DNA of 63,445 nt, the filler included, from Octopus bimaculoides (Eukaryota): the NCBI RefSeq assembly GCF_001194135.2. It is 10 parts of 10 records of this genome, joined end to end, with 100 filler letters (N's around TTAATTAATTAA, not from the genome) between each part and the next. Parts side by side here need not be neighbours in the genome. Positions count along the whole stretch, not along the records: positions 1 to 18,765 come from NC_068982.1; positions 18,866 to 21,283 come from NC_069001.1; positions 21,384 to 25,624 come from NC_069002.1; positions 25,725 to 30,510 come from NC_068986.1; positions 30,611 to 37,094 come from NC_068994.1; positions 37,195 to 48,382 come from NC_068985.1; positions 48,483 to 55,668 come from NC_068991.1; positions 55,769 to 59,474 come from NC_069004.1; 2 more parts are not named here. The stretch is one strand, 5' to 3'. Shown here piece after piece: positions 11,446-62,659 of the stretch (the first letter of the stretch is position 1; every line of letters begins with the position of its first letter). The notes beneath the pieces were generated by a model. It did not search any database. It was given only the letters and a program-made list of their open reading frames with translations, and had not been told where the DNA came from. A program made the translations under genes and the position numbers.

Positions 11446-11640
11446 CAACAACAAATACAAAGTGTTTGGCTGACTACTGTTTTATCATTTGTTTTATTTG
11501 AATGAAATTAATGGAATTATCAGCAACAACAGCAAGAACAGGAACAAAAGAAGTGATTATACAGTTCTATATTTAAGAGATGAGGAATTATTTACATTAT
11601 TTACATTTGACGGATATTTGTCCTCATCTTGTTTGTTGTT

Positions 11641-11686
11641 AACACAACGTTTCGGCTCATATACCCTCCAGCCTTCGTCAGGTGTC
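11641..11686 (-). ncRNA. Minimal type I hammerhead ribozyme-like motif (family H1)
   Basis: Minus strand: GACAC CUGACGA A GGCU..AGCC GAAA CGUU GUGUU. Confidence 0.6.
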
Positions 11687-11739
11687 TTGGGGAAATTTTG
11701 AACCTTAGGAATGAGAACCCAGGTTCAAAATTTTCCCAA

Positions 11740-11785
11740 GACACCTGACGAAGGCTGGAAGGTATACCAGCCGAAACGTTGTGTT
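11740..11785 (+). ncRNA. Minimal type I hammerhead ribozyme-like motif (family H1)
   Basis: GACAC CUGACGA(11745-51) A GGCUG-loop-CAGCC GAAA(11773-76) CGUU GUGUU. Palindromic AACGUU stem III; stem I GACAC/GUGUU. Confidence 0.65.
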
Positions 11786-12434
11786 AACAACAAACAAGAT
11801 GAGGACAAATATCCGTCAAATATAGATAATGTAAATAATGTAGAAGTGATTATGTATTCCTTAGACAGCTAACTCCTTAATTATGAGTTGAAATCTATGT
11901 TGGACACTGAATTCTGCATGACTTGTAACTATGAAAACTAGCTACAGGGCTCTTCTGATAAATTTATCAGCAAATTTAGTGAGAACTGACATTTTGTAAA
12001 ACTTCTTTTGAGCAAGTTACTCAACACCATAAAGGCTGTCTCATTTTCTCAAGTATGTTTGTATATTTATCAAAGGTAGTAGTAGCATGAATAAAGTGAT
12101 TTGGAGCTCAGAATCCAGAGCAAATTGAAGATCCCTTTTCCTGGGAATTATATCTTCCATTCTATCATGATCATTATATCTATCTTCATCACCATTGTTG
12201 TTGTCATTGTCATTGTCATCATCATCATTGTCGTTATCATCGTCATCATCATCATCATCATCATCATTTTTGCATCCACTTTTCATGTTAGGTTAGATAA
12301 GCCATTACGATCCAAGTCAGTTCTCATTCAAAGTTACTGCCCTCTTAGACAGGTTTGAATATAACATCTTGCTCAAAACATTTCATTTTGACATGGTTTT
12401 TATAGTTGAATGCTTCTCCTATCACCAGCAACTT

Positions 12435-12735
12435 TGATGATGCACTGGGTGCATTTTATCATGACACCAGTTCTATAGAGATTGCTCTGTCCATGGCCCG
12501 AATAAAGGCCCTCTTAACCCAACTCTTATTCTCCTCATTTGTTAATCATTAAACAGAGTGTACAGGGTGCATTTTATTGTAACACAAACTCTTGAAAGAT
12601 TGCTTTGTCCTTGGCCAAACTAAAAGGTTCTTTCAAACTTACACTTTCTCTGCTCATTTGTTAACTTTTACAGAGTGTGCTGGGTATATTTTAATCAAGA
12701 CACCAACACTAATAAGATTGATTTGTGATCTATGA
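12435..12735. repeat. Degenerate ~115-bp tandem repeat (about 2.5 units)
   Basis: Recurring GGGTGCATTTTA..ACAC..AGATTGCT.TGTCC.TGGCC..CTCATTTGTTAA..ACAGAGTGT. Confidence 0.65.
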
Positions 12736-14029
12736 GGCTTAAAATCTTCACTGCACTGTTTCCATTCATTCAAGGTAAACAAAATTATTGCAAATAACAA
12801 TTTTCTTTAGTAGTAGTTAACGGAAATAAGATATTACTTTATCATAGAAGAAATGTATTCCATCAACACAAAGTGGTTAGAAACTTAACTGTTAAAAATA
12901 GCAGCCAAATTTTCATCATATCACACTCTATCACTTAAAATAAAGAGAAATTGATATTGGATAATGTCATCCTAAATACACTGTCTTTCAGTTTGTTTGT
13001 TTTGTTTGTTTTTATTTGAAAAATAATGGAAATAATGAAGTCTACATTAATAGAATTTATTTATGAAAGATATTTAAATAACGGATATTAAAGTGTTAGA
13101 CCAACCAAAACAGTCTCTGGCCTAAGATTCTGGTATAATATCTACAAATACATCTGGGCGAATGTGATGTACATTTGATTGATATAACTGAAGAAGGGGA
13201 ACTAAAGCGAGAATAATGACATAAAACATGGTAAGACATCTATTTGATAAGAAATGATTGCCAAAGGAAAACAGGAGTAAAACTGATCAATCTCGTTGTT
13301 GTTGTTGTTATTGTTGTTGCTGCTGCTGCTGTTGCTGTTGTTGTTGTTGTTGTTGTTGTTCTTGTTCTTGTTGTTTATTCACAGGTAAACCCTCATCAAG
13401 AAGATATGATCGAAGTATTCCAAACATTCATCCTCAGACATGATTTCATCTTTAAAATGGTAGGATATGATATCTAAGAGGCTTTGTTGCTATTTCTAGC
13501 AGGTTGAACAACCCCATAGAAGCTTCCATCTTTTATACATGTAACAAAAACTTCTAATATCCAAAATATGAGTACTAAGCCATGACACAAAATGTCCAAT
13601 AAAATAGCGCTGCCATTGTGTTTCAAGACACATAGACATTAATGCTTGCTGCCATCAATTTCAATTATTCAAAGTCTACAGACAGAATTATTTTGTCCTC
13701 CTCTTTCTTTTGTGCATATAATGGACATAACTCCATACATTTTCAGTCTCTCTTACTAAAAAATTGTCATCACTACTTCGCTCAAGCAATTCTTCACAGG
13801 TATAATGCTGTGCTAGAAATGCCAACCTTCAACTTGGTAACACCAAAATTCACGCCTTTGTCTTGTTTTTATTTCCAATCTGATTCACACTAGGACAACC
13901 CTGTTACTACTTCTATGCTACAGTTTAATGCAAGCTTAGGGGTAGTTTTTTTCAAGATGTGGACCACAGAAGACATAGCTCATCATCACATAGGCCACAG
14001 TACTAAAAAAATTCAAGGTAATTTTCCAT

Positions 14030-14257
14030 TTAACCCTTTAGCATTCAGGTTATTTTGACAAATGTTTTGTTTATTTATTCACATTGTTTTGAGTTAATCA
14101 TGTATCGTCTTGTAGCTTTGAGATTTAAAAGGATATGAATGTTTATTTCTAGAATGACATTATAAAGTAGATGGGAGAGGTCAGATCTGGCTAGTTTGAA
14201 CATAAAGCAGTAGAATATTTTGGTTGGATATGGCCAGTTTAACTGCTAAAGGGTTTA
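14030..14257. mobile_element. piggyBac-like MITE
   Basis: TTAA-CCCTTTAGCA ... TGCTAAAGGG-TTTA termini. Confidence 0.7.
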
Positions 14258-14708
14258 GCATACCATTCAAAAAAATTCCATGGGCCACACTTTGCCCATA
14301 ACTGGTTTAAAAGTTACAGTTAGTGATGGCATGCTATTTAATAAAATATAACTATTTTCCAGTGAGGCAGGCATTTTTTTCTTCTTTTGTATCTTCAAAA
14401 CTATTCCAACCTAAGGCTGCACAGAACAAAAAAAATAATTTAAATGCTCTTAAAAGTGTAATAAAAAAGAAATGCACAGGAAAGCAAAATATATCTAAAT
14501 AAAATACAAATAAAGTATAATAAGTAACTTCATTATTAAGCAGCTATATGACTAAATTGGGAATTTTGAGATGATTTTATTGGCATAAGATGCAAATGTA
14601 AATTGCACTATATTGCAATTGTTGTAGTAAAGCATATGTTAGCTAATACTATTCTCTGAATCTAATGCCGAATGTCACTTTGAAAATATTTTTGCTTTTA
14701 TTCTTTAC

Positions 14709-14754
14709 CTGTTGTTTTTTTTTTGTTTTTTTCTTTTCTGTCTTTCATCATATC
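14709..14754 (-). CDS. Candidate 46-nt exon (same hypothetical gene)
   Basis: Acceptor TTATTTCTGCAG, donor CAG|GTAAAG, phases 1 to 2 fit the neighbouring candidates. The A-rich low-complexity content is suspicious. Confidence 0.25.
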
Positions 14755-15545: not shown

Positions 15546-15910
15546 ACACCGTCACCATCGTTACCAGTGTCGCCTTACTGGCAGTTGTGCCGATGGCACA
15601 TGGAAAACAACATTCGAGCGAGGTCGTTGCCAGTGTTGCTGGACTGGCTCCTGTGTAGGTGGCACGTAAAAAAACACCATTTGAGCATGGCTGCTGCCTG
15701 TACCGCCTGACTGGCCCTCATGCTGGAGGCACGTAAAAGCACCCACTACAATCTCGGAGTGGTCAACATTTGGAAGGGCTTCCAGCTGTAGAAATTATGG
15801 CAGGTCAGATTGGAGCCTGGTGCAGCCATCTGGTTCGCCAGTCCCCAGTCAAATCGTCCAACCCATGCCTGCATGGAAAGCGGACATTAAATGATGATGA
15901 TGATGATGAT
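15546..15910 (+). mobile_element. Repeat family D copy
   Basis: Matches 8135-8530; (GAT)n tail at 15892-15910. Confidence 0.85.
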
Positions 15911-16019
15911 ATATATATAAAAAATTAATGNNNNNNNNNNNNNNNNNNNNNNNNNNNNNNNNNNNNNNNNNNNNNNNNNNNNNNNNNNNNATATATATAT
16001 ATATATATATATATACACA

Positions 16020-16410
16020 TGGCTTCCGTGCTAGTGGCCCGTAAATAGCACCATTTTATCGTAATCGTTACCAGCGTTGCCTTCTAGCACTTGTGCTGGT
16101 GGCACGCTAGAAAATCATTCAAGCTAGGTGGTTGCCAGTGCCGTTGGACTGGCTCCTGTGCAGGTGGCACGTAAAAAACACCATTTTGAGCATGGCCATT
16201 GCCAGTACCATGTGACTGGCCCTCGTGCCGGTGGCACGTAAAAGCACCCACTACAATCTCGGGGTGGTTGACATTAGGAAGGGCTTCCAGCTGTAGAAAC
16301 TCTGCCAGATCAGATTGGAGCCTGGTGCAGCCATCTGGTTCACCAATCCTCAGTCAAATCGTCCAACCCATGCTAACATGGAAACCGGACGTTAAACGAT
16401 GATGATGATA
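16020..16410 (+). mobile_element. Repeat family D copy
   Basis: Matches 8135-8530; (GAT)n tail. Confidence 0.85.
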
Positions 16411-16555
16411 CATGTATATACAACAGGCTTCTTTCAGTTTCCATCTACCAAATCCACTCACAAGGCTTTGGTCGGCCCAAGGCTATAGGTGTCACGCAGT
16501 AGGACTGAACCCTGGACCATGCAGTTGGGAAGTAAGCGTTTTACTACACAGAGAT
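16411..16555 (-). mobile_element. 5' half of SINE family A
   Basis: CTTCTTTCAGTTTCCATCTACCAAATCCACTCACAAGGCTTTGGTCGGCCC is the reverse complement of 9755-9815. Confidence 0.8.
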
Positions 16556-18765: not shown

Positions 18766-19137
18766 NNNNNNNNNNNNNNNNNNNNNNNNNNNNNNNNNNN
18801 NNNNNNNNNTTAATTAATTAANNNNNNNNNNNNNNNNNNNNNNNNNNNNNNNNNNNNNNNNNNNNGGTGGTGGTGGTGGTGGTGGTGGTGGTGGTGACGA
18901 TGATGGTTTTTGGCCAAAACTTTGAACGAATCAGGCAAACGCATAGTACAATAGCCAAGACTGAGGCGGATCAGTGTCCTCTGAGAAATATCTACTCGTT
19001 AGTGTGGCGATTCTTGGGTTTTAGACTCATTCCGTTACCCACTTGAACCGTGGTTGTTGTTTGTATTTGTAATTTTTCTTCTTTTTTTTTTGTAGCCATT
19101 TACTCTCTCTGTTACTGTCTTTCGAGACAGCTCTCGC

Positions 19138-21283: not shown

Positions 21284-21689
21284 NNNNNNNNNNNNNNNNN
21301 NNNNNNNNNNNNNNNNNNNNNNNNNNNTTAATTAATTAANNNNNNNNNNNNNNNNNNNNNNNNNNNNNNNNNNNNNNNNNNNNTATATATATAGGTATGT
21401 ACATATATGTATGTATATATGCATATATTTATATATTATTTATATTATTATATGATCGAACGCCACGCATCCTTTTCTAAGTAATTTCATCTATATATAC
21501 ATATATATATTCGATTTCCTGCCTTCCTATAGAGAAGACGTGAATTTTTTTGTCTCATTCACTCTCCAATTAGCGTTCAAAATAATAATTTTTCTATCGT
21601 TTTGGTCTAACAGCCCTTACCGTTTGTTTTCACTGTTCTGTCTTGTTTTTACTGTCTTTTACTGTTTTGTTCTCACTGTCCTGTTCTTG

Positions 21690-21965
21690 TTTACACTATC
21701 ACCCTCCGCAAAAAATTCCAAATTTTATTTAATTTGCTTTGCGGGAAGGACTGTTCCAACGAAGTTGCGTATTGTCCTTGCCTTCGAAACGTGGAGTAGA
21801 TGGAAAAGGGACAACTGAAGAAGGGAAATATTCTTTATGTTGCATGTCTCGTTTCTCTGCTTTTTTTTTTCGTTGTTCGAAAAATGTTCGTTTTCTGTCT
21901 TCGTCTATATGTTTTTGTTTCTCATTGTGTTTAACGTTTTTTGTGATGTCCTGTACCCATATATG
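21690..21965 (+). mobile_element. Dispersed repeat family E
   Basis: CCTTCGAAACG..CTGAAGAAGGG..TTTATGTTGCATGTC..GATGTCCTGTACCCATATATGCAT, shared with 47075-47285 (+) and 53095-53230 (-). Confidence 0.75.
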
Positions 21966-22414
21966 CATGTATGTATGCATATAGATGTAGGTATGTAGGT
22001 ATATGTATGGATATATGCATATAATTATATATTATTTATGTTATTATATATATAGATATATATATATATATATACAAAGAGAGTTAGAGGTTGAGAATCC
22101 AACCCACTAAGGGATAATATCTATCCAATATACTGCTAGGAGGGTACCCAATTATTGTTACAATAGTGTTTTACCAAGTGCAGTCAGTGGGTGCGGGTAA
22201 AAAGGGGTTTTACCCTAAATTTATATAGCAATAAGAAAATGGAGGGGAATATGAGGTACTCATCAACTTGCAGACACTGTACTCTGTTGATTAATCCGTT
22301 TATTTTACAAGCAAACGGACAATAAAGACAATATACAGGCACTTACGACATACCATCATATCAACAATTAAAATTTCAAATTTAAAAGGACATCTATCAA
22401 CCGAAGAAGGGACA

Positions 22415-22550
22415 AAATCTTACAGCTGTTTCGGCCTAGCATTGGCACGTCCCATTCTGTCTATATAGCTCCAGTACGCTGGAGTGATTGGTAGATGAAA
22501 AGGATGCAATGGGGATACATGCATGATTCACTAGGCCTCTTCAGAGATTT
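22415..22550 (-). ncRNA. Type I hammerhead ribozyme with 91-nt insertion in stem II (family H2)
   Basis: AAAUCU CUGAAGA GGCCUAG [91 nt] CUAGGCC GAAA CAGCUG UA AGAUUU. All core nucleotides are intact; 6-bp stem I, 7-bp stem II, palindromic stem III, GUA site. Confidence 0.8.
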
Positions 22551-23696
22551 ACAAAATTCAATTCATGAATTTTGCAAAATTCAACTACAAATATAAAAAT
22601 ATATAAAAAAAAACATATAAAGAGTCATAAAATCTCATATATACATGCATATGCATGTATACATTACCATATACAGAAATACATGAATACAAAAACATAA
22701 ACACATGAATACCTATATGTGTGTTCAGATGTACATACAAAGATGGCTGTACATGCATACCAAAAGAGTCAAAAGTCACTGTTACTATATATGAGAGGAC
22801 AGACACATATATATATACCCACCCACACATACATACATACATACACATATGTATATATAAATACTCCCATACATACATGATCCCTGGTACAAACGTTTTC
22901 AGTTGCGTTTGGAAAGTAGTAACGGTGCAATGGTTCTTATCACTGTATTTTTATCACAATGTTCAGACATATATGTATATATATATATATATATTTGTTT
23001 ATATGCTAAACCTGTGGGGTACGAGTTCTCTATGTGGTGGAGGGGTCTATGTAGAAATTATTTCTTGAAGAATTGTTGAGATAATAATGTGTAGACATTT
23101 TAAACTGCGATGAGATACTTCGTTATTTTTTCGTTTATGGAGAAGATAGGGTTCTGCTAGTAGTGGGTATTTGGAATCCTGCTGGCATTTGGGGAGGGAT
23201 TATTTTTGCTGTTAAGTCCTCTCATCTAATTGGACATCTATTGTTTTAAACTGTCCTGGCTTAGCTACGGTTGGATAGCCACTAACCGGTCAAATGAGTT
23301 AGGCGTGAGTATACATACATCCACACATACGTGTGCATTTATATATTTATATACGTGCACACATACATATACATATACACACACATACATGCCTGTATAT
23401 ACTTATATAGATGGTATGTATATCCAAATACAAAGATTAAATAAGTTATTAAATAAATTATTAAGAAGTTTATATGCGGATGCAAATAAATATTCGTATG
23501 TACGTATACGCACATACACGACCACACTATAATCAGGGGTAAAGTAACAAAACAAAGCAATAACATAGTAACACTATAAGACTGCTCGTATTCCACTTCA
23601 TGTATGTTGGCGTTAAACGCTAAGATTACGTCTATAATACAGTCTTCGATTACATATTAAAACTCCTACACATTAAAATTCCTACACATATAAAAA

Positions 23697-32050: not shown

Positions 32051-32829
32051 GAGGAGTCGGGGTACGCACTATGCACTACGCACGTACGCACTACGCACGT
32101 ACGCACTACGCGCGCGCGCACGCACACACACACACACACAGAGTATGAAACAACTGATGAAATAGAGTGTGTATGTGTGTGTGTGTGAGAGAGAGAAGGG
32201 GTGTGTTGTCATGTATACGTACATACATAAATAAATATGCATACATCTTTTTTGTATGTATGTATGTGTGTGTGTGTGCACGTGAGAGAGAGTGAGTGTC
32301 ACTTAGACATCACTTTCTCTGTCTGTCTTTGTCTCTCTCTCACACATACGCACACATACATACAAAAAATGTATACATATGTATTTATGTACGTATACAT
32401 GACAACGCAGCCCTTGACTGACTTTTTCTCTCTATCTCTCTCTTTCTCTCTCAAACATGCACACATACATAAATGTATACAAACGTACATACAAAAACAC
32501 ACGTGTACGTGTGTGACTGACTTGTGTGTGTGTGCGAGAAAGATAGTGAGAAAACAATGAATGAAATAAATATGAAATGAAGAAATCGTATAAATAAAAG
32601 CTCTTGTACTAAATATTTAAACTTGTGAACTTAGTAGATATTTCTTTCAGTAATTTATCGTAGTTGTTTGCAAAAAGCGAATTAAAACTTGAAATGAAAA
32701 CATTAAAATAATGAGTGAGAGGTTTTGCAAATGAAAACGGAAAATTTCGCCGTTGCTATGTCAATACCGGAAGCTGACACTGAGAAACCTTTTTAAAGTA
32801 GTGAATCATATATAGAAAACAATATTATT

Positions 32830-33250
32830 TAGAAATAATACATTTCTAAATCTCTCAGAGAGACTTAAGCAGTAGTGGTGCGATAAAGTAGTTGTATACT
32901 GCCAACTTAACGTGACAGTCCCAATAAGGGAATATACTACTGCTATTTAGCCCTAGGAAGCTGGACCGCTTCCTGTCGGCCTTGACACATTTCCTGTGTC
33001 CTTATGTTTGCGAGGGGGAGACAAAATCCTCCACCCAGCCCAGCCTACATTCAGGGACATGTTTTTGAGTTTTTGCTCGTCATCAGCCTGAAGTAGCATG
33101 ACTAACTGGCTGAAGAAGCTTGTCAACCCTTCGCAAACATATACTATTTCAGTGAAACACATTCACTGATTACAAAAATTAGAAATAATACATTTCTAAA
33201 CCTCTCAGAGAGACTTAAGCAGTAGTGATGCGATAAAGTAGTTGTATACT
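32830..33250. repeat. 71-bp direct repeats (32830-32900, 33180-33250) bracketing a hammerhead-bearing insert
   Basis: Two copies with 2 mismatches, 350 bp apart. Confidence 0.85.
33050..33092 (-). ncRNA. Decayed minimal type I hammerhead (family H3)
   Basis: UUCAGG CUGAUGA C GAG-CAAAAA-CUC AAAAA CAUG UC CCUGAA. Perfect 6-bp stem I, palindromic ACAUGU stem III, GUC site; G12 is replaced by A. Confidence 0.6.
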
Positions 33251-33431: not shown

Positions 33432-33727
33432 ACATTTGTGTATGGGTGTATGTATCTATATGTATATGTATAATAATAATAATATTAGGGATAAAAATCC
33501 AAATTTACAGGTAAAAACTCAATTTAAATTCAATTTATTAAAAATTAAAATTAAATTAAGTTTCACAGTATAATATATATATATATATAGTTTTAGGGAA
33601 AAGAACCAAGGTTCATGAACTCATCGATGAACATCCACTGTCACATATAGAAAAATTAATAAGTAAAAGCACAATAAATAAGTATAATATAATACAAAGT
33701 AAATATCATAAGATAATGATAATAAAA

Positions 33728-33833
33728 CGACTACACGTGTTCCATAACCAATTTTCAAATAGAAAGAATATTTAAATCGATTAAAACTATCGAAAATCAA
33801 TTTTATTAAAAAATATAGCTAATCTTCAGGTCA
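33728..33833 (-). ncRNA. Decayed type I hammerhead with long stem II insert (family H4)
   Basis: UGAC CUGAAGA U UAGCUA [long AT-rich insert] UGGUUA U GGAA CACGUG UA GUCG. GAAA has become GGAA; palindromic ACACGUGU stem III; GUA site. Confidence 0.5.
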
Positions 33834-34039
33834 AAATACAACAATGATAATAATAAAAGAATAAATAACAAATGAATGTATATAAAATACTTATCATATT
33901 AAGATATATATATATGGGTGCGTATATTTGTGTGTAATCCTCTTTTACAGGTACTAACAGATGGCAAATGTAAGTTCATTTTTCAATTATATCCTCGTTT
34001 TTTAAAAAAGGAACATTCACCTTGTCCTGCTTTTATGTT

Positions 34040-36824: not shown

Positions 36825-37015
36825 CACTATTACAGTTCTATATCTAAGAAATGAGGAATTATGTACATTATTTACATTATTTACATTTGACAGATATTTG
36901 TCTTCATATTGTTTGTTGTTAACATAACGTTTCGGCTGATATACCCTCCAGCCTTCATCAGGTGTCTTGGGGAAATTTCGAACCTGGGTTCTCATTCCTG
37001 AGGTATTTTTCGATG
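36825..37015 (-). mobile_element. Single copy of the H1 Penelope-like terminal unit, next to (TTA)n
   Basis: Close match to 11558-11720. Confidence 0.85.
36921..36966 (-). ncRNA. Minimal type I hammerhead-like motif (family H1)
   Basis: GACAC CUGAUGA A GGCUG-GAGGGUAUAU-CAGCC GAAA CGUU AUGUU. Confidence 0.6.
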
Positions 37016-37021
37016 TTGTTG

Positions 37022-37094
<73 letters not shown>

Positions 37095-38830: not shown

Positions 38831-41429
38831 NNNNNNNNNNNNNNNNNNNNNNNNNNNNNNNNNNNNNNNNNNNNNNNNNNNNNNNNNNNNNNNNNNNNNN
38901 NNNNNNNNNNNNNNNNNNNNNNNNNNNNNNNNNNNNNNNNNNNNNNNNNNNNNNNNNNNNNNNNNNNNNNNNNNNNNNNNNNNNNGGTTCTGCTTCAGGA
39001 TGTACTCAGTTTCAACCGAGTATGTCACAAACAAGACAAAATAAAAAATTGAAATTCATGAGATGCTTTATTAATCACCTGACGATACACATCTGCCGCT
39101 AAGGATGCACAACAACCACTTGTACATTATCCCACCAGGAATGGACCGATGCAAGATGGATTGAAACGATTGTTGTGTTTAATAAAGAATCTCAGGGATT
39201 CCATTTTCTGTTTCTCTCACTTGTTATGTATTTACATATACATATGTGTATATATGNNNNNNNNNNNNNNNNNNNNNNNNNNNNNNNNNNNNNNNNNNNN
39301 NNNNNNNNNNNNNNNNNNNNNNNNNNNNNNNNNNNNNNNNNNNNNNNNNNNNNNNNNNNNNNNNNNNNNNNNNNNNNNNNNNNNNNNNNNNNNNNNNNNN
39401 NNNNNNNNNNNNNNNNNNNNNNNNNNNNNNNNNNNNNNNNNNNNNNNNNNNNNNNNNNNNNNNNNNNNNNNNNNNNNNNNNNNNNNNNNNNNNNNNNNNN
39501 NNNNNNNNNNNNNNNNNNNNNNNNNNNNNNNNNNNNNNNNNNNNNNNNNNNNNNNNNNNNNNNNNNNNNNNNNNNNNNNNNNNNNNNNNNNNNNNNNNNN
39601 NNNNNNNNNNNNNNNNNNNNNNNNNNNNNNNNNNNNNNNNNNNNNNNNNNNNNNNNNNNNNNNNNNNNNNNNNNNNNNNNNNNNNNNNNNNNNNNNNNNN
39701 NNNNNNNNNNNNNNNNNNNNNNNNNNNNNNNNNNNNNNNNNNNNNNNNNNNNNNNNNNNNNNNNNNNNNNNNNNNNNNNNNNNNNNNNNNNNNNNNNNNN
39801 NNNNNNNNNNNNNNNNNNNNNNNNNNNNNNNNNNNNNNNNNNNNNNNNNNNNNNNNNNNNNNNNNNNNNNNNNNNNNNNNNNNNNNNNNNNNNNNNNNNN
39901 NNNNNNNNNNNNNNNNNNNNNNNNNNNNNNNNNNNNNNNNNNNNNNNNNNNNNNNNNNNNNNNNNNNNNNNNNNNNNNNNNNNNNNNNNNNNNNNNNNNN
40001 NNNNNNNNNNNNNNNNNNNNNNNNNNNNNNNNNNNNNNNNNNNNNNNNNNNNNNNNNNNNNNNNNNNNNNNNNNNNNNNNNNNNNNNNNNNNNNNNNNNN
40101 NNNNNNNNNNNNNNNNNNNNNNNNNATATATATATATATATCAGTAGAGAACAAACTATGCTTTTTAACCTGTATATACTGAAACATAACTAGAATAGTG
40201 TGGTATTCGTCTTGAGAAAGCGTTTCGGTAACATGCACTCACCCTATATGCATATCACGGTGTTGGTCTCTTTTCTTCTTATATCTACATTCAGTAATAC
40301 ATACAACTTGCACTTTCTCACTAATATTTAATTTGTCGCTAATATGAAATATGTATATAGATACGTGAAACTGCACACACACACACGCACACACACACAT
40401 ACACACACTTATATACGTATATATACATGTATATGCGAGTGCGCACGCGTGTGTGTGAGTGTATGTGTACATTTACATATTTAGGTATGCATATATTTGT
40501 GTGTTAGAGTGTGTGTCTGTGTACATATGCATTTGCATCACTGTGTGTGTGTGTGAACGCATATGTATACATTGATTGCTAGATAAATAGACAGATAACA
40601 CTTTTTATACAGTTCCAGAGAAAACCAATTAAAATACTTCTGCATAATTCAGAAAAAAAAAACACAAATGGTAAAAAAAAAAAAGAAACAATTCATGAAA
40701 ATCGCAATATTGTATACCAAGTTTCTGCGATTTAGTTCTTAATTAAAATATCACACTGATTTTGTATGATGTTTTCTCTTTTAATTTAGTTCTTAATCTA
40801 CAAACATTTCACTAGTATGCAATGCCTTCTGGCCACTAATTAGACACAATTTTAGCTGTTAGCGCCATCTAGCAGAAGGTGAGTGCATATCTCATGTATA
40901 GAAATCGTGTCGAGTTTTCAGTTAATTACTTACTTAAGTATATTAACACGCTTAAAGATCAACATCGTAATTGAGAAGCAAATATTGAACAGACGTAAAT
41001 GAAGAATAATATTTTACTACTTTTTCTCCAATATTTGTTTTTCTTTCTTTATTTTTTTCCTAACTTGTATCTTTAGTTTGCCCTGGAGAAATGATATTTA
41101 AAAAAAACCAATATCGTGTGTATGTTACTGTATGTATATAAATCTGGGTCCGTTGCTATATGTATAGATTAACCTCCATGATCTTCCCCCTAAACTTCTG
41201 ATCGCATCCTACGATTACAAACCCCTGTCTCATTGTATTATTTTATTATTTTAATTCCGTTGTTTAATTCTTTCCATTCTTATTCTTCATTTTCTTTATG
41301 CGTGTGTGTGTCTGCCTTTCATCACGTGACGCTGTTTCTTTCTCTAAGGCGCCCTGTTTGCATAAGCGTGTGGGCGTTTGTGTGTGAGTGTGAGTGTGAG
41401 TGCGAATATAAGTAAAATATTGAAAATAT

Positions 41430-46764: not shown

Positions 46765-47010
46765 GGGTGGAGGCGCAATGGCTCAGTGCTTAGGGCAGCG
46801 GACTCGCGGTCGTAGGATCGCGGTTTCTATTCCCACACCGGTCGTAGTGACTGTTTATTGAGCGAAAATCCGACACTCCGGCAGAGGATGGTGGGGAACG
46901 CTGCTGTACTCTTTCACCAGAACTTTCTCTCTTTCTTCCTGTTTCTGTTGTGCCTGTAATTCAAAGGGGCAGCCTTGTCACACTGTGTCACGCTGAATCT
47001 CCTGGTTTTT
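46765..47010 (+). mobile_element. tRNA-derived SINE family B, 3'-truncated
   Basis: GGTGGAGGCGCAATGGCTCAGTG..GGACTCGCGGTCGTAGGATCGCGGTTTC matches 50503-50755. Confidence 0.85.
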
Positions 47011-47074
47011 AGGGTATCACGAAAGACTTGGCTAGAGGTACAACATTCTGAGTTCTGTAACAGGGCTTCGAAGC

Positions 47075-47285
47075 CGCGTCTTGTTCCTACCTTCGAAACG
47101 CGGATTAGATAAAACAGAGGACATCTGATGAAGGGAATGTTGTTTATGTTGCATGTCTTGTTTCTCTGTTTGTTGTTTTCGTTATTCGTAAAACAGAGTT
47201 CCTTTTCTATGCATTTGATTTTTATGTTCTCGTTTCTCATTCTGTTCACCTGTTTTTGATGTCCTGTACCCATATATGCATATGT
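47075..47285 (+). mobile_element. Repeat family E copy
   Basis: Matches 21770-21965. Confidence 0.75.
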
Positions 47286-49664: not shown

Positions 49665-49975
49665 GCTTAGGGTATTTGGCTCATGATCATAAGGTCATGA
49701 GTTCAAAACCTGGCGGTGCATTGTGTCCTTGACCAAGTCACTTTATTTTCCATGTTGCTTCAGTACACTCAGCAGGCAAAAATGAGTATTACCTGTAATT
49801 CAAAGGGCCAGTCTTGTCACATTCAGTGTCATGCTGAATCTCCTTGAGAACTACCTTAAAGGTACTTGTGTCTGTGGATTGTTCAGCCACTTGCATGTTA
49901 ATTTCATGAGCAGGCTTTTCCATTCATTGGATCAACTGGAACCCTCATCATTGTAACCGATGGGGTGCCAGTTTA
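49665..49975 (+). mobile_element. Degenerate tRNA-SINE with family B 3' half
   Basis: CCTGTAATTCAAAGGG.CAG.CTTGTCACA..GGATCAACTGGAACCCTC shared with 50700-50885. Confidence 0.75.
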
Positions 49976-50404: not shown

Positions 50405-51674
50405 TACAAGGTACATTCAAAAAGTTTAGAGACTTTTTTTAGGAGTGGCAGTTATAACTGTCCTAGAATATTGTAATTTTAGTATATCATTACTATATAT
50501 CTGTGGAGGTGCAATGGCCCAGTGGTTAGGGCAGTGGACTCGTGGTCATAGGATCTTGGTTTCGATTCCCAGACCGGGCGTTTTGAGTGTTTATTGAGCG
50601 AAAACACCTAAAGCTCCAAGAGGCTCCAGCAGGGGATGGTGATGACCTGGCTGTACTCTTTCACCACAACTTTCTCTCACTCTTACTTCCTGTTTCTGTT
50701 GTGCCTGTAATTCAAAGGGTCAGCCTTGTCACACTTTGTCACGCTGAATATCCCTGAGAACTACGTTAAGGGTACATGCGTCTGTGGAGTGCTCAGCCAC
50801 TTGCGTGTTAATTTCACGAGCAGGCTGTTCCGTTGATCAGATCAACTGGAACCCTCAACGTTGTAAGCGACAGAGTGCCAACAACAACTATATATCTAAT
50901 AAGCTGACCTGCCAACTTGAGTGAAAGAGATGGCTCTAACAGCACTTTGAACACACCCTAAAAAACATTGTGTGTTGCAGCTGACTGGTTTGCAGAATGC
51001 AGTCAAGATGCTTAGCAGTTTACCATGCAATAAAGTTTTGTGTTAAACTGGGGAAAAACGCTACTGAGATTTATGGAATGCTCCAGACTGCTTCTGGATT
51101 AACTTTTACACTGGCACAATAGGCTCAAGGATGGTAGAGAGGAGGTGAGAGATGATGACAAAAGTGAGAAGGAGAGGGATGTCAGAATATCAGAGATGGT
51201 TGAGGAAATCTACAATTTTCTGGATGAACGCCATTGTGTGTCTATAAAGATAATAGGCATGCAAGTTGGAATTGGTGTGGTATTTGTACACATGAGCAGA
51301 GTTTGTTCCTAGGGTGCTCATGTACAAAATCTGTTCAGAATTTGTTCCTAGGATGTTCATTGAGAAGCATATTGGTAGCCAACTACTGGAGAGAAGTGGA
51401 CATCAAAACTGTCCGTCACCTTCCCTACAGTTCAGTCCTTGTGACACTCGGTTGTTCCCCAAGCTAAAAGAGAGCCTTAGGGGTAACTGTTTTGAAGACA
51501 TTCAGGAAATGAGGGAGGCTGTGACAAGGGTCCTTCATGAAGTGATTGTAGCATTACAAGTGCATTGAAGTCAAAGAATCCTACTTTGAAGGAGATTAGA
51601 GTTTTGTATTTCTTTGAAATTAAGAAATGTCTCCTCCTGAAAAAAGTTTGGAGACTTCTGAAATGCACCTTGTA
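50405..51674 (+). mobile_element. Internally deleted mariner element with both TIRs
   Basis: TACAAGGTACATTCAAAAAGTTT / AAAGTTTGGAGACTTCTGAAATGCACCTTGTA. Internal remnants CVKLGKNATE and PCDTRLFPKLKESLRGNCFEDIQEM. Confidence 0.8.
50503..50889 (+). mobile_element. Full-length tRNA-derived SINE family B inserted in the mariner element
   Basis: A box TGGCCCAGTGG, B box GGTTTCGATTCC, (CAA)n tail. Confidence 0.9.
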
Positions 51675-55404: not shown

Positions 55405-55668
55405 TAGTCTGTTGTTGTTGGCACTCCGTCGCTTACGACGTCGAGGGTTCCAGCTGATCCAATCAGCAGAACAGCCTGCTCGTGAAATTAACGTGCAAGT
55501 GGCTGAGTACTCCACAGACACGTGTACCCTTAACGTAGTTCTCAGGGATATTCAGCGTGACACAGTGTGACACAGTGTGACAAGGCTGACCCTTTGAATT
55601 ACAGGTACAACAGAAACAGGAAGTAAGAGAGAGAAAGTTGTGGTGAAAGAGTACAGCAGGGTTTGCCA
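55405..55668 (-). mobile_element. SINE family B 3' portion
   Basis: Reverse complement of 50650-50889. Confidence 0.85.
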
Positions 55669-56245: not shown

Positions 56246-56443
56246 CTTCATTAGCTGTTTCCACTATAAGATGTGGTTGACTCGTAGCTGAATGCCTGAG
56301 TAACAACTTATAGCTTTATCAGAGCCTCAAGCATTGAAGTGCATTTTCTGTTAGAGGCTCTGATGAAGCTGTTAGGTGTTACTCAGGCACTCGGCTATGA
56401 GTCCACCACATCCTATAGTGGAAACAACTGTAAGCTAACGAAG
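56246..56443. repeat. Inverted repeat (~85-bp arms, 25-bp spacer) of a hammerhead-bearing unit
   Basis: 56246-56328 versus 56354-56443. Confidence 0.85.
56356..56436 (+). ncRNA. Type I hammerhead with extended stem II (family H5)
   Basis: GGCU CUGAUGA(56360-66) AGCUGUUAGG..CCUAUAGUG GAAA(56421-24) C AACU GUA AGCU; GUA site. Confidence 0.6.
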
Positions 56444-57049: not shown

Positions 57050-58095
57050 TATTTCAACGCTCCGATCACCACTGGTATCACTTTTACATTACCCTCTCGC
57101 ATTCCATACAATCTTGCCATTTCCACTTTTAATTCGGAGTACTTGGTGAGTTTTTCAACCTCTTTACTCACAACATTCATGTCATCTGGTAAAGCTACAT
57201 CAATGACCTGACAGTATTTGTCTTTCTTATTCAATATGACAATATCCGGTCGACGGTGTTCGATTACACGATCCATCTCAAAATCCTAGTCCCAGAGTAT
57301 TGTTACATTTCCATCCTCCTGCATAACTTATACCAGTTCTCTGTTACTTCATATTGGTATTTACGTCATAAGAGCTAATGAAGATACACACACACATTTT
57401 ATCGTGGTGGCGTTTGTATTCTTTCTGTGCAAGGCTCCCACATTCACTTACCAAGTGGGTCACATTTTCCATACTCTTTACACAGAGTCTGCATTTCTGG
57501 GTGTCAAAAGTTTTATAGATGTTATACTACACTGACTTGGTAGCGAGAGCCTGGTCTTGTGCAGCGATGATCAGCCTTCAAATCACCTCGCTCAAGCCAT
57601 ATCCACGATACTGTATTATCCTTAACGTCTTGTGTATTCCTTTCAAACTGTCCATGCATTCTCATTTCAAGGACTTCTTTTCTCTTCTCCTCGGCTCTTT
57701 GGTTAAACTCTTCCTCGCCCATCATTTCATCTGCATTTACCCCCATATCTTTCGCAGCATATTGCATCTGGTCTTCATCACTATTTATCAAATACTCGGC
57801 AAGCGCTCTCCTTTCACTCCTTATACAATGGTCTGTACTAATTAGTCCTCTGCCACCATTCTTTCTTTTCATATACAGTCTGTTCACGTTTGCTTTAGGG
57901 TGTAGCGCCCCTTGCAGCGTCATCAACTTACTCATCCTTCTATCCAGTGTTGATATTTCCTCCTTAGTCCATTTGAGGATGGACGCACTATATCCGACCA
58001 CCGCAACTACCCAGATATTCATTGCGGTAATCAAATTTTTGGCATTCAGGTTGGATTTCAACACTATCTTCACCTTTTTTTGATACGCTTCACGT
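57050..58095 (-). mobile_element. R4/Dong-type LINE fragment (RT thumb to REL endonuclease)
   Basis: ORFs 57522-58073 (RLYMKRKNGGRGL) and 56875-57276 (RRPDIVI..IDVALPDD..KEVEKLTKY..PVVIGAL); the 5' end abuts (TAA)n. Confidence 0.9.
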
Positions 58096-58099
58096 GTTA

Positions 58100-58164
<65 letters not shown>

Positions 58165-58265
58165 CCGCCAAGATCGACTTTGCCTTTCGTTCCTTCGGCG
58201 TCGATAAATTAAATACTAGTTAAACACAAGGGTTGATTACATCGACCCCACCACCAAATTTCAAG
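58165..58265 (+). mobile_element. SINE family C 3' part
   Basis: CGACTTTGCCTTTC..GTCGATAAATTAAATACTAG. Confidence 0.7.
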
Positions 58266-58284: not shown

Positions 58285-58526
<242 letters not shown>

Positions 58527-59835
58527 TTTATTGAAGAGGCGGATGAGAGTGGAGAGGGAGGTGCACACTTCTAGCAAATTTAAGAATTTGCTAGATGAGT
58601 GGATGAAAGTGGCAACCATGTTGCATGTGAACGGGCCGGCTCTGAGCATACGCTTCTGAGTGGAGTAAGAGAGAGGAAGCACTTGCCTAAGTGGTCAGGG
58701 AAACCGTGATTTTCTGTGGGGTCTGCACGGTTTTGTCTTGGAATTCTTCCCTTACTATTAAGGAATTGTAATTGTTTAACTTTATTGTTCAATTTTGTTA
58801 TTGTTTTATATGTTTACACGGTAAACCCCTCCGTCTGTACTTTTGTATTTGCGTCCCTGTGGCCAAAAAAGAAAACATTATTATTCATTTATATGTGTTT
58901 GAAAGAAATATTTACGTCTGCATATTCATACATGCATGTGTGTGTGTGTGTGTGTACATGTATGTACGTGTGCAATGTATGTATGTGAATTTCTACATTC
59001 ATATCTTCACATGTGTGCGCGTTCGTAGAAAGATATTTATGTAATTGCATCTCTGTTCGCATAACACCTACCTTTATTCAGAAGCTAATACATATCTACG
59101 TCCATAAGTTCAAACTGATGATTATATAATAACCATGAACATCATGCTGTATATATACGTGTGTGTGTGGCGGGATTCTGTTTGTGTAAAATTATGAATG
59201 TGTGTATGTGTACGCATTTTTCATTGCATTTTATCTCCTGTCAGGATCTTCTGTTTAGCCAGCAAATTATTTGAATAATATGCATTTTCACGTGATCCTC
59301 CAATTTAGATTTTTATTCGAACGCTCTAAAGTAGAGACTAGCTCATTACTTACGGAGCTGTATTATGTGAAATCACTTTCGTAAGGGCTTTGCACGAAAC
59401 TCTTAGCTCTTCAGTCACTGTTGTAATGTAACTTACCACTGATTAAAAGATATTTACACACACACACACACACANNNNNNNNNNNNNNNNNNNNNNNNNN
59501 NNNNNNNNNNNNNNNNNNTTAATTAATTAANNNNNNNNNNNNNNNNNNNNNNNNNNNNNNNNNNNNNNNNNNNNTACATATATTATACATATATATATAT
59601 GTATATATATGTGTATGTATGTATGTATGTAACTATTAGAAATGCAAAAAAGAAATGAAAGAAATCTCGAATGCAGTAGATAACTGCGAAAACTGCTTAG
59701 AGGATAAGATAAAATACCCTTATAGACGGAATAAATTGGCCAGCAAGCCTCTGCAGTAATTAATATTCTCCTGCATTCGAGATCTCTTTTACTTCTAAAA
59801 TATTAACTCAATCGGCGTTTCAATGTTTGAACATA

Positions 59836-60042
59836 TACGAGTGTATGCTGAAAATTTCCTGGCTTTTAAAGTCCTGGTCGGAAGCCCAGCATTCCGAGTT
59901 CTTTTACAGGGCTTAAATAAAACCGAAGGACTGCTGCAGTAATTGAATCTGAGCGAGGAATATGTTGAATAAAAACATTATTAACTAATCCTCCTGCATT
60001 TACTTTTACCCAAAGCCAGGAACTTTTCAACAACCCCTCGTA
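59836..60042. mobile_element. Mariner-type MITE with TA ends
   Basis: TACGAGTGTATGCTGAAAATTTCCTGGCTT / AAGCCAGGAACTTTTCAACAACCCCTCGTA. Confidence 0.8.
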
Positions 60043-60729
60043 TGTTAATCTGTATGTGTGTGTATANNNNNNNNNNNNNNNNNNNNNNNNNNNNNNNNNN
60101 NNNNNNNNNNNNNNNNNNNNNNNNNNNNNNNNNNNNNNNNNNNNNNNNNNNNNNNNNNNNNNNNNNNNNNNNNNNNNNNNNNNNNNNNNNNNNNNNNNNN
60201 NNNNNNNNNNNNNNNNNNNNNNNNNNNNNNNNNNNNNNNNNNNNNNNNNNNNNNNNNNNNNNNNNNNNNNNNNNNNNNNNNNNNNNNNNNNNNNNNNNNN
60301 NNNNNNNNNNCTCAAGCAATTTGCACTAATTAGTGGTTAACTTAGTACTTTTCTTCTTTTAGTAGTGGAACTCAAAGTAAAACAAAGCAACACCAACGTC
60401 CTCTCAACGATTAGCCAGGGATGATTTTTAAAATGAGAATATCTGAAATAAACTCAACTGCTCTCACAAACGAGAATATTAAAAATGAACCCGACCGCTC
60501 TCAAAAATTAAGTTAAAAAAACAGGAAGAATAATCCAGAATCCTTGTCCGGTACCAGATCGATCTCAAAATCTAATCAGTTTGTGCCAGTCACAAGGCCA
60601 AACATCCCTGAAAGTTTCATCCGAATCCATCCAGCGGTTCTCGAGATATCTTGTCCACGGACAAACAAACAGGACTGATAACAATACCTCCGTCTTGCTA
60701 AGGCAATAAAGCTATAAACAGCACTTATA

Positions 60730-60818
60730 AACAGCCACTTGCACGTTAATTCCACGAGCAGGTTGTTCCGTTGATCGGATCAACTGGAACCCTCGGCGAC
60801 GCAAGCGACGGAGTGCCA
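60730..60818 (+). mobile_element. SINE family B 3' end
   Basis: CAGCCACTTGCACGTTAAT..GGATCAACTGGAACCCTC..GCGACGGAGTGCCA. Confidence 0.8.
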
Positions 60819-61030
60819 TATATATATATATATATATATATATCATAAATAATTTGGACAAATACGTATAATTCGATTAGAGTAGAGCACTGGCACAGTT
60901 TAGGCTACTTGTTGTCATCTGCAGTTGTGGCACACGTCTGTTGGATCTACGTCAGGAACTCCGCAGTGACAGTTAGGGCAATATTATTAATAAATAGTAG
61001 GAGATGAATTTCGTATAAGACTTTTATTAG

Positions 61031-61075
61031 GTACAACTTATGTTTCGACCCATCAGTCTGGGTTTCCTCAGGTAC
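61031..61075 (-). ncRNA. Type I hammerhead (family H6, left arm)
   Basis: GUAC CUGAGGA AACCCA-GACUGA-UGGGUC GAAA C-AUAA-G UU GUAC. Confidence 0.6.
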
Positions 61076-61331
61076 ATTGATAAAGATGTCTCACTGGAGA
61101 TTTTCACTATCGGTTAACTTGTTGTTATGTGCCCATCAAGTTCTCTACTTTCATTTTTCTCTGAGCAGTTATGACAGCGAACGCTGATTAGGCCATTTTG
61201 TCTAAACTGGAATGCATGTTTTCCACGTTCTTATTTGAATTTTTTGCGTTTCTGTACATAATATTATTTGATTTTGTTCAATTTGATGGGCAGCCGATTC
61301 TAAAAATCTCTAGTGAGACTTCTTTATCAAT

Positions 61332-61376
61332 GTACCTGAAGAGACTCAGACTGATGGGTCGAAACTTATGTGGTAC
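61332..61376 (+). ncRNA. Type I hammerhead (family H6, right arm; position 17 is G)
   Basis: GUAC CUGAAGA GACUCA-GACUGA-UGGGUC GAAA C-UUAU-G UG GUAC. Confidence 0.6.
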
Positions 61377-62659
61377 CTAATAAAAGCCTAATACGAAATC
61401 CTTCTTCGAACCCACAAGAGTTAACAAGTGAGACAGAGACAGGCAGAAGCAAGAAAAATGCTGCTGTTATTTGAATGCTATAAAAATATGTCTTTAAAAA
61501 GACTTTTCTTTTAAATTTACCAAAATTNNNNNNNNNNNNNNNNNNNNNNNNNNNNNNNNNNNNNNNNNNNNTTAATTAATTAANNNNNNNNNNNNNNNNN
61601 NNNNNNNNNNNNNNNNNNNNNNNNNNNAGCAGCCAAACGTCCCATAAAATGATCGTCTTATGTAAGAACTGGATGGTCATGGACAGAATACTGATGATCA
61701 CAAATAAGTCTACTTGCTCATTGTTGACACAGGGCCAAACAGCATTGTGGCTACACTATGTCACCACCACCATCACCACCACCACCACAACTATCACCAC
61801 TACCATCAGAACCACCACCACCACCATCCAGAGACAACCAGCTCAATATGACCACTGCTGCTTCTACCACAACCACAATTATCACCAACATCATCATCAT
61901 CATCATCATCAGTAGCAGCATCATCATCATCAGCATCACCATTGTTGTCATTGCCATCATTATTGTAAAGATGATGATGATAGTTATGAACACCTGTTGT
62001 AGAGCTTGTTCTCCACCACCCCAACTATCACCTTCCCCACCATTACAGGATTCTAACCACCACTACCACTACATCAATACTACCATCTCCACAATACTAA
62101 AAACGGCTTCCACCACCACCACAACCAATGCTACCACAACCACCATCACCACCATGAATTCTAGCACCTACATCACCTACCACTGTAACCACCACCACCG
62201 CCATCAGGGCCACCATCACCACCACCACCTCCGCCACCACCATTTTTAGACAGTGCTATACAAAAGTCCTCATTCTGCTGTGAAATGAGTCATGGCGGAA
62301 ACAAAAGATGAAATGCTAAAAGCGAACATCACACCACTGNNNNNNNNNNNNNNNNNNNNNNNNNNNNNNNNNNNNNNNNNNNNNNNNNNNNNNNNNNNNN
62401 NNNNNNNNNNNNNNNNNNNNNNNNNNNNNNNNNNNNNNNNNNNNNNNNNNNNNNNNNNNNNNNNNNNNNNNNNNNNNNNNNNNNNNNNNNNNNNNNNNNN
62501 NNNNNNNNNNNNNNNNNNNNNNNNNNNNNNNNNNNNNNNNNNNNNNNNNNNNNNNNNNNNNNNNNNNNNNNNNNNNNNNNNNNNNNNNNNNNNNNNNNNN
62601 NNNNNNNNNNNNNNNNNNNNNNNNNNNNNNNNNNNNNNNNNNNNNNNNNNCACCATCAT

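What the first reader, a model, noticed from the sequence alone, without database searches (positions are those of the whole stretch)
11558..61400. About ten hammerhead-ribozyme motifs from about six unrelated repeat families in one 63-kb window
Seen: the type I hammerhead order (stem I, CUGANGA, stem II, GAAA, stem III, NUH, stem I') occurs at 11641(-), 11740(+), 22415(-), 33050(-), 33728(-), 36921(-), 56253-56326(-, broken), 56356(+), 61031(-) and 61332(+). Stem sequences differ between families while the core and pairing are kept. Several have palindromic stem III (AACGUU, ACAGCUGU, ACAUGU, ACACGUGU). Established: minimal type I hammerheads with palindromic stem III occur in Penelope-like element (PLE) terminal repeats and in non-autonomous retrozymes, and can act as dimers. 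Inference: this genome has a diverse, high-copy population of short ribozyme-bearing PLE or retrozyme elements that ORF-based annotation misses.
Basis: partly seen in the sequence, partly recalled or inferred. Interest (0 to 1): 0.85.

Follow-up and report, generated by a model that had tools for sequence, protein, structure and literature searches.

The report
tRNA-headed Penelope retroelement with hammerhead ribozyme
The hammerhead motifs are real but mostly decayed ends of Penelope-like jumping genes in an animal genome that is likely an octopus, which is a known arrangement; the new point is that the commonest family carries a tRNA-derived stretch at which many copies begin, so it likely uses a captured RNA polymerase III promoter and spawns short SINE-like copies.

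Summary
All ten motifs are present, far above chance, but only 3 of 10 are fully intact. The window is not one locus: it is ten scaffold pieces joined by spacers, and the motifs lie on five contigs. They belong to six high-copy families with different stems and a palindromic stem III: minimal hammerheads of Penelope-like element (PLE) pseudo-LTRs, as described in 2014 (PMC4209133). Families A and F are tied to coding frames; B-E are not. Family A is an autonomous PLE (reverse transcriptase, C-terminal GIY-YIG-type domain) with the hammerhead inside the start of its ORF, inverted 5' copies and an optional ~33-nt tail. Of 19 unselected copies holding the A box, 12 begin within -12..+3 of the head's first base (about 1 expected), and the 2.5-kb ORF lacks TTTT on the sense strand (P 0.008-0.21 by null). 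Likely reading: a captured Pol III promoter. No RNA evidence for the start or for cleavage.

The parts
11549..11560 (+). left copy of a 12-bp target-site duplication around the family A inverted pair
11561..11705 (-). family A pseudo-LTR 3' part, inverted copy, with the ~33-nt tail; intact hammerhead at 11641-11686
11702..11841 (+). family A pseudo-LTR 3' part, direct copy without tail, 5'-truncated just before the ORF start codon (no tRNA head); intact hammerhead at 11740-11785
11842..11853 (+). right copy of the 12-bp target-site duplication
22415..22550 (-). family B hammerhead, intact, 105-nt stem II region; the repeat runs from about 22045 to 23560; no ORF link found
32829..33250 (-). family C, about 1.2 units of a ~350-nt repeat (72-nt direct repeat); hammerhead at 33050-33092 with G12A, family majority intact
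33728..33833 (-). family D hammerhead, A13G in this copy, family majority intact; repeat about 33439-33915
36831..37094 (-). third family A copy with tail; hammerhead at 36921-36966 with a stem I mismatch; runs into the (TAA)n tract and is cut by the end of the scaffold piece
56253..56330 (-). family E inverted copy, broken (G8A, deletion in stem III)
56356..56436 (+). family E hammerhead, core intact, one mismatch in the palindrome
61031..61075 (-). family F hammerhead, core intact, palindrome broken
61332..61376 (+). family F hammerhead, palindrome and cleavage position broken; inverted partner of 61031
18766..18865 (.). first of nine artificial 100-nt spacers (others start at 21284, 25625, 30511, 37095, 48383, 55669, 59475, 61528); not biological

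Best explanation
The ten motifs are decayed hammerhead ribozymes in the terminal repeats (pseudo-LTRs) of at least six repeat families, two tied to Penelope-type coding frames and four likely of the same kind, and the commonest family (A) opens its pseudo-LTR with a tRNA-derived head that likely acts as a captured RNA polymerase III promoter. Shown: the family A unit is head (~75 nt), (TAA)n, start codon, hammerhead inside the first codons, then an ORF of about 840 codons (reverse transcriptase, C-terminal GIY-YIG-type domain), then the same pseudo-LTR again. Copies end at two fixed places about 60 and 95 nt past the cleavage site, often carry an inverted 5' copy, and pile up their 5' ends at the head's first base. 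Inferred: Pol III starts at the head; the PLE protein binds the RNA and starts reverse transcription internally just past the hammerhead, as shown for the anole element; copying back to the RNA's 5' end gives a ~250-300-nt solo pseudo-LTR, a SINE in all but origin, that keeps its own promoter. Longer copies arise when copying starts in a downstream pseudo-LTR. The template is uncleaved RNA, so the hammerhead is not what sets the ends; it would cleave only as a dimer or with protein help. After insertion the copies decay neutrally. Odds by step: PLE pseudo-LTR hammerheads 0.92; head is tRNA-derived and marks the preferred 5' boundary 0.9; boundary is a Pol III start 0.65; whole ORF also read by Pol III 0.35.
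For: RT: Pfam RVT_1 E 1.8e-10; 3 of the 120 listed relatives carry PF01541 GIY-YIG beside RVT_1, and the family A C-terminus aligns to one of them (P0100) at 39%, E 1e-53. Link: 23 of 30 ORF-anchored loci have the hammerhead region and 22 of 30 the head downstream; 30 of 30 head-anchored loci have the hammerhead 124-173 nt downstream. Hammerhead in frame with the ORF in L362 and L366, as in the anole element (PMC11167929). Tail in 58 of 115 copies. Head aligns end to end with true tRNA genes of G000 (best Ala-TGC z 7.2, Arg-TCT z 6.9), with A and B boxes identical in the 29 head-anchored copies scored (these were picked by likeness to the head). 5' ends: among 41 copies not selected on head or ORF, 19 hold the whole A box and 12 of them start at -12..+3; 1.0 expected from the rate inside the head, P about 1e-11 (inverted partners are not independent). 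In contigs of run X15 (kind unrecorded) depth rises 5.4-fold across the head start and strand-switch joints fall at 2043-2057 of L169. No TTTT in the 2511-nt majority ORF, 4.5 expected by base shuffle (P 0.008) and 2.9 by synonymous-codon shuffle (P 0.028); copies 22 observed against 145/85, while the ORF type linked to family F has 47 against 30/36 and a LINE 17 against 20/23. The head no longer folds as a cloverleaf (z +1.58), as expected of a promoter rather than a processing signal.
Against: No direct RNA evidence: in the one raw-read RNA run (X24, 6% read, both directions about equal, possibly another species) no place where many molecules begin or end was found on family A or C, and depth rises only 2.9-fold at the head. 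A ~10-bp fold-back hairpin straddles the head start and could itself stop reverse transcription. The TTTT deficit rests on one master lineage and weakens under Markov nulls (P 0.08 order 1, 0.21 order 2); some small control sets are also low (a piggyBac-like frame 2 against 4.3/6.5, one LINE set 6 against 10.3/3.7), and 5 copies have TTTT just before the hammerhead. Of seven copies that reach the ORF start only one (L377) begins at the head's first base, one begins inside it and the rest are shorter. An uncapped Pol III RNA would translate poorly. Pfam itself did not name the family A or F endonuclease domains. Families B-E have no ORF link in 20-25 loci each. Double compensatory changes within families: 2 cells in all.
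Confidence: 0.62

Rival explanations
1. Passenger SINE: a simple tRNA SINE with a (TAA)n tail was once inserted in the PLE's untranslated region and is carried along. The element is transcribed by Pol II, and 5' ends pile up at the head because reverse transcription stalls or folds back at the hairpin there.
For: Hairpin across -15..+10; many head-start copies have an inversion joint there; the Drosophila element has a Pol II-type promoter (PMC2377424, abstract); head plus microsatellite looks like an ordinary simple SINE.
Against: The hairpin's upstream arm is itself a short inverted copy of the head's 5' end, the mark left when an RNA that began there was inserted (inference); ends spread over -10..0 rather than one stall point; no free-standing copy of the head was seen in 30 of 30 head-anchored loci; TTTT deficit on the sense strand only.
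Confidence: 0.25
2. Processing signal: the head is cut from longer Pol II read-through RNA by RNase P or a similar enzyme, giving templates that begin at its first base, much as HDV-like ribozymes free R2 RNA.
For: 7 of 37 head-anchored copies start exactly at position 0; read-through RNA is present.
Against: The head does not fold as a tRNA (193 of 200 shuffles fold as well), is missed by ARAGORN in 19 loci and by Rfam, and many copies keep 1-10 bases upstream of position 0.
Confidence: 0.08
3. One reading: a population of stand-alone retrozymes that self-cleave as dimers, circularise and spread through circular RNA.
For: Family C has a ~350-nt unit with partial tandem copies, in the size range of animal retrozymes (10.64898/2026.07.22.740005); B-E lack an ORF link.
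Against: A and F are ends of ORF-bearing elements; no copy ends at the cleavage site; none of the 25 family C loci showed a direct repeat long enough for two full units; no back-joint in the RNA run for family C.
Confidence: 0.15
4. Chance motifs or an artefact of how the window was assembled.
For: The window is a join of ten pieces and is about six times richer than the genome sample.
Against: 0 palindromic hits in 100 window shuffles and in 5 shuffles of the 1-Mb sample; three window copies checked with flanks match G000 at 100% over 2.7-3.2 kb; six unrelated stems all pair.
Confidence: 0.01

Closest known systems
Minimal type I hammerheads of PLE pseudo-LTRs (Cervera and de la Pena 2014, PMC4209133; dimer cleavage as reviewed in PMC6765202)
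   Same: Type I order, short stem I, extra base after position 9, palindromic stem III, many families per genome, thousands of mostly single copies, pairs on opposite strands.
   Different: No octopus or mollusc is named in its main text; long stem II inserts in families B, D and E; no tRNA-derived head reported (0 hits for tRNA).
Poseidon element of the green anole (Frangieh et al. 2024, PMC11167929) and canonical Penelope/Poseidon PLEs
   Same: RT then C-terminal GIY-YIG-type domain, hammerhead overlapping the ORF start, two fixed 3' ends giving a 30-40-nt optional tail, inverted 5' copies, no RNA ends at the cleavage site.
   Different: Family A has a tRNA-derived head and (TAA)n upstream of the start codon, a sharp 5' pile-up there, and an ORF without TTTT; the studied Drosophila promoter is of Pol II type (PMC2377424).
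Schistosoma Sm-alpha and Sj-alpha SINE-like hammerhead elements (seen only as reviewed in PMC6765202)
   Same: A Pol III-type promoter followed by a type I hammerhead in a short, high-copy retroposon.
   Different: Those are described as tandem and self-cleaving, and the passages read name no autonomous partner; here the promoter-like head is part of the autonomous element itself and the copies keep the uncleaved hammerhead with PLE ends.
Animal non-LTR retrozymes (PMC7229834; 10.64898/2026.07.22.740005)
   Same: Family C: ~350-nt unit, type I hammerhead, partial tandem, no ORF found.
   Different: No two-unit array or circular RNA shown here; families A and F are ORF-linked.
tRNA-derived SINEs with LINE-derived tails
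   Same: tRNA head with A and B boxes, lost cloverleaf, 3' end recognised by an autonomous partner (recalled general model; PMC5786205 seen as a search listing).
   Different: The partner is a PLE, not a LINE, and head and tail sit together inside the autonomous element's own terminal repeat.

Membership tests
Penelope-like element, EN+ (family A) | PLE-type reverse transcriptase | tested here: met
   Pfam RVT_1 E 1.8e-10; 1196 relatives, some with GIY-YIG in the same protein; no tree built
Penelope-like element, EN+ (family A) | C-terminal GIY-YIG endonuclease in the same ORF | tested here: met
   39% identity, E 1e-53, to the C-terminal part of P0100, which carries PF01541; no direct Pfam hit; 837-codon majority frame
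Penelope-like element, EN+ (family A) | pseudo-LTR at both ends of the ORF, inverted 5' copies, optional 30-40-nt tail | tested here: met
   definition from PMC8557442
Penelope-like element, EN+ (family A) | placement in the Penelope/Poseidon clade by RT phylogeny | not tested
   inferred from domain order only
Penelope-like element (family F) | RT plus GIY-YIG ORF upstream of the hammerhead | tested here: inconclusive
   7 of 20 ORF-anchored loci have the hammerhead region downstream; Atlas neighbours at 0.95 carry PF01541 in 31% of members; no Pfam hit and no RT linked in one copy
Penelope-like element (families B-E) | RT plus GIY-YIG ORF | tested here: inconclusive
   none of their own within about 1.5 kb in 25, 25, 20 and 23 loci; inverted 5' copies present
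PLE minimal hammerhead | CUGANGA/GAAA core, stems I and II, palindromic stem III, NUH | tested here: met
   all six family majorities; 3 of 10 window copies fully intact
PLE minimal hammerhead | self-cleavage as dimer or with protein | not testable with these tools
   no read ends piled at the site in run X24; needs a bench assay
tRNA-derived SINE (short family A copies) | tRNA-derived head with A and B boxes at the 5' end | tested here: met
   box consensus is recalled; parent tRNA not settled
tRNA-derived SINE (short family A copies) | transcription by RNA polymerase III | not testable with these tools
   indirect only: 5' pile-up and TTTT deficit
tRNA-derived SINE (short family A copies) | independent lineage mobilised by a LINE | tested here: not met
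   ends are PLE-type and the head is shared with the ORF-bearing element
Non-LTR retrozyme (family C) | two or more tandem units each with a hammerhead | tested here: not met
   only partial tandems in 25 loci of about 3 kb; the assembly is gapped, so arrays may be collapsed
Non-LTR retrozyme (family C) | circular RNA | tested here: inconclusive
   no back-joint in raw-read run X24; library type is poorly suited

The most novel reading that the evidence does not exclude
Family A is an autonomous, protein-coding retrotransposon whose whole 2.9-kb template RNA is made by RNA polymerase III from a captured tRNA promoter, with terminator runs purged from the ORF, and whose own 5' end is copied into tens of thousands of SINE-like elements: a SINE born inside its driver, and a direct link between PLEs and tRNA-headed hammerhead repeats such as schistosome Sm-alpha.
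Probability: 0.3. Interest if true: 0.85.

Novelty: new variant of a known kind. Interest (0 to 1): 0.55.

Why it matters
Family A adds three things. It ties a tRNA-derived, SINE-like repeat to a named autonomous partner that is a PLE; I found no such case in four searches aimed at it (Repbase, Dfam and most subscription papers are not covered). It gives a simple route to SINE birth: internal initiation by the PLE protein copies the element's own promoter-bearing 5' end. And if the TTTT-free ORF reflects Pol III transcription, a protein-coding retroelement would be using the polymerase for short non-coding RNA, which makes the open question of what PLE hammerheads are for (translation of uncapped RNA, or a brake on it) directly testable. 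About 10 family A copies in 872 kb suggests some 20,000 in this genome.

Tried and rejected
Rfam scan of the window: no hammerhead family among the 150 rows shown of 239. The repeat finder was swamped by N runs and microsatellites. ARAGORN (19 loci) and Rfam (one locus) did not call the head a tRNA. Parent tRNA not settled: only Arg, Thr, Ala and Lys genes were recovered (17 matches). Pfam gave nothing for three short ORF fragments. Scan of metagenome contigs for relatives, to see whether sister PLEs have a head: 57 pattern matches, none confirmed. Run search: no RNA holder listed. Reads laid on families A and C: no piled ends, no circular joint. Within-family covariation: uninformative; core conservation figures are inflated because copies were anchored on the core. 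Test of shared against private T-creating changes: 0 shared at 50 scored opportunity sites, but fewer than one expected, so no power. A CUGANGA-bearing repeat at 21815 and 47125 was examined and rejected as a hammerhead (no GAAA after stem II). In one search one locus (L161) was read on the wrong strand; one search repeats the count with strands taken from the alignment. In one search the reading frame was off by one; one search repeats it. Papers seen: PMC4209133 (passages, part 1 of 4), PMC11167929 (parts 1-2 of 4, the main text), 10.64898/2026.07.22.740005 (parts 1-3 of 5), PMC8557442, PMC6765202, PMC7229834, PMC13282606, PMC8967140 (passages), PMC13725137 and PMC2377424 (abstracts). No supplements were read; those of PMC4209133, PMC8557442 and PMC13282606 may list octopus PLE consensus sequences.

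Full report
Source. G000 has 2.34 Gb in 145,327 contigs. The closest named relative of the family A protein is an Octopus sinensis protein at 79% identity, so the host is likely an octopus (inference). The window is not a locus: nine identical 100-nt spacers divide it into ten pieces, and the ten motifs map to five contigs of G000 (C2, C22, C14, C24, C76094). Three pieces checked with flanks match G000 at 100% over 2.7-3.2 kb.

Observation. Each of the ten coordinates holds a type I hammerhead order. A strict descriptor accepts three (11641-, 11740+, 22415-); 100 block-wise dinucleotide shuffles give a mean of 0.08, at most 2, and no palindromic hit. Three more keep the core with one stem or palindrome mismatch, and four have a lesion in the core or at the cleavage position; the family majorities are intact in all six, with six different paired stems I and palindromic stems III. 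The ten are seven insertions, three being inverted pairs; the pair at 11561-11841 lies within a 12-bp target duplication. An eleventh remnant lies near 39079. In 100 evenly spaced 10-kb stretches (872 kb without N) a slightly looser descriptor found 13 hits, 7 palindromic, against 0-2 hits and 0 palindromic in five shuffles: about 8 per Mb (3-17), or of the order of 16,000 intact motifs in the genome, against 50 per Mb in the window. BLAST with the six cores gave 24 rows in that sample, 14 of them family A and none family F.

What they are. Many copies in every family have an inverted partial copy at the 5' side, and family A copies end at one of two fixed places, with or without a ~33-nt tail (58 of 115). 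These are the marks of Penelope-like elements (PMC8557442, passages). Four of the first 20 family A loci ran upstream into coding sequence. This led to an RT (RVT_1, E 1.8e-10) followed by a domain that aligns with the GIY-YIG-bearing end of a relative. Of 30 loci found with that protein, 23 have the hammerhead region downstream on the same strand; three of the seven misses have 494-667 N there and one is a contig end. In L362 and L366 the hammerhead is also found at the front, in frame with the ORF, about ten codons after an ATG; the majority frame over 20 long copies is 837 codons. This is the layout of the anole Poseidon element, where reverse transcription starts at two internal sites past the hammerhead, producing the optional tail, and where cleavage is not needed for insertion (PMC11167929, main text). 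Family F has a second ORF type upstream in 7 of 20 ORF-anchored loci, with a weak GIY-YIG lead. No ORF of their own was found for B, C, D or E. Family C is a ~350-nt unit in partial tandem. So far this matches Cervera and de la Pena 2014: thousands of minimal hammerheads per genome, in several families, mostly from truncated PLEs, some in pairs on opposite strands. A 2026 preprint argues that animal retrozymes derive from PLE pseudo-LTRs.

The new part. Just after the stop codon of family A, and before a (TAA)n tract and the start codon of the next unit, lies a ~75-nt stretch that aligns end to end with true tRNA genes of this genome (best z 7.2 and 6.9 among 18 distinct genes) and has A-box and B-box sequences (consensus recalled). 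It does not fold as a tRNA. It was never seen alone: 30 of 30 head-anchored loci have the hammerhead downstream, and 22 of 30 ORF-anchored loci have the head. The window's three copies lack it (two truncated, one cut by a scaffold end). Among 41 copies picked without regard to head or ORF, 11 end before reaching the head, 5 are obscured by N or an edge, 6 end inside it, 12 start at -12..+3 of its first base and 7 run further upstream. The rate of ends inside the head predicts about one in that 16-nt window (P about 1e-11; paired copies are not independent). In the evenly spaced sample alone the figure is 4 of the 6 that hold the A box, with two more at -17 and -145 and one at +5. Contigs of run X15 show a 5.4-fold depth step and strand-switch joints at the same place. 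Under the internal-initiation mechanism, a pile-up of 5' ends most simply maps the RNA's 5' end, and a start at a tRNA-derived A/B-box unit points to Pol III (inference).

Pol III stops at runs of four or more T (established, recalled). The family A majority ORF has none in 2511 nt; expected 4.5 (base shuffle, P 0.008), 2.9 (synonymous codon shuffle, P 0.028), 2.4 (Markov order 1, P 0.08) or 1.6 (order 2, P 0.21). Across 140 coding segments of copies, 22 runs were seen against 145 or 85; outside one site next to the hammerhead (5 copies) every run is in one or two copies. The ORF type linked to family F shows no deficit (47 against 30 or 36), nor do two LINE-type sets and a Tc1-like set, though some small sets are low. 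This is one lineage and one statistic: suggestive, not proof.

Against. A fold-back hairpin across the head start could stop the RT, though it looks like the relic of an earlier 5' inversion at that very point. Only one of seven copies that reach the ORF start begins at the head's first base. The single raw-read RNA run shows both directions about equally, no piled ends at the head or the cleavage site, and a smaller step at the head than X15; a standard library would lose short unadenylated RNA, so this is weak. How an uncapped RNA would be translated is unexplained; self-cleavage can drive cap-independent translation in RNA viruses (PMC13725137, abstract), but here the cut would fall downstream of the ATG. 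A split is possible: protein from Pol II read-through, templates from Pol III.

The hammerhead's role. Genomic copies keep it uncleaved, with 60-95 nt beyond the cut, so inserted templates were uncut. Inverted pairs cannot dimerise in cis. Double compensatory changes within families number two, as neutral decay predicts; the informative covariation is between families.

Prior work. Four searches for a tRNA-headed PLE or PLE-driven SINE found none; a search for hammerhead, Penelope and octopus found four listed papers, none on this by title or abstract; two octopus repeat papers have no mention of ribozymes in the main text. The nearest case is the Pol III-transcribed hammerhead SINE-like repeat of schistosomes (as reviewed in PMC6765202). 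Three earlier notes of this scan describe tRNA-bearing, ribozyme-free repeats with PLE-type ends in other genomes; they are unchecked leads, but family A offers a model for their origin.

Verdict. The finding as given is real and of a known kind, and the clustering is an artefact of the window. Family A is a new variant worth following: interest 0.55.

Noticed in passing
window 39075-39178 (+); L357 about 6350-6460 (+): Decayed hammerhead, likely of a seventh family with a long stem II; an intact look-alike lies in L357.
   Followed up: partly
window about 59370-59418 (-): Possible twelfth, degenerate hammerhead-like motif; no second copy in the loci held.
   Followed up: partly
window 21760-21957 and 47069-47270 (+); L104, L197, L269, L292, L294: Repeat family with GAAAC upstream of CUGANGA and a hairpin after it, with an inverted partner in L104; does not fit a canonical hammerhead order.
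   Followed up: partly
L297, L304, L329, L151: Further unrelated hammerhead motifs in the loci, so the genome holds more than seven families.
   Followed up: no
family E loci L071-L095: Two subfamilies differ by a linked pair of 3-nt changes that stay complementary just 5' of GAAA, hinting at an alternative hairpin.
   Followed up: no
L203:6801-7508 (-), L090, L232, L385: A third GIY-YIG type (PF01541, E 6e-5) with no hammerhead seen in the sequence held downstream, up to 1.5 kb.
   Followed up: partly
window 8224-8539, 15557-15919, 16099-16418, 63059-63301 and 46767-47002, 49792-49970, 50503-50888, 55411-55657: Two other abundant interspersed repeat families, probably ordinary SINEs.
   Followed up: no
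window 57522-58208 (-): 228-codon open frame whose translation resembles a non-LTR retrotransposon fragment by eye.
   Followed up: no
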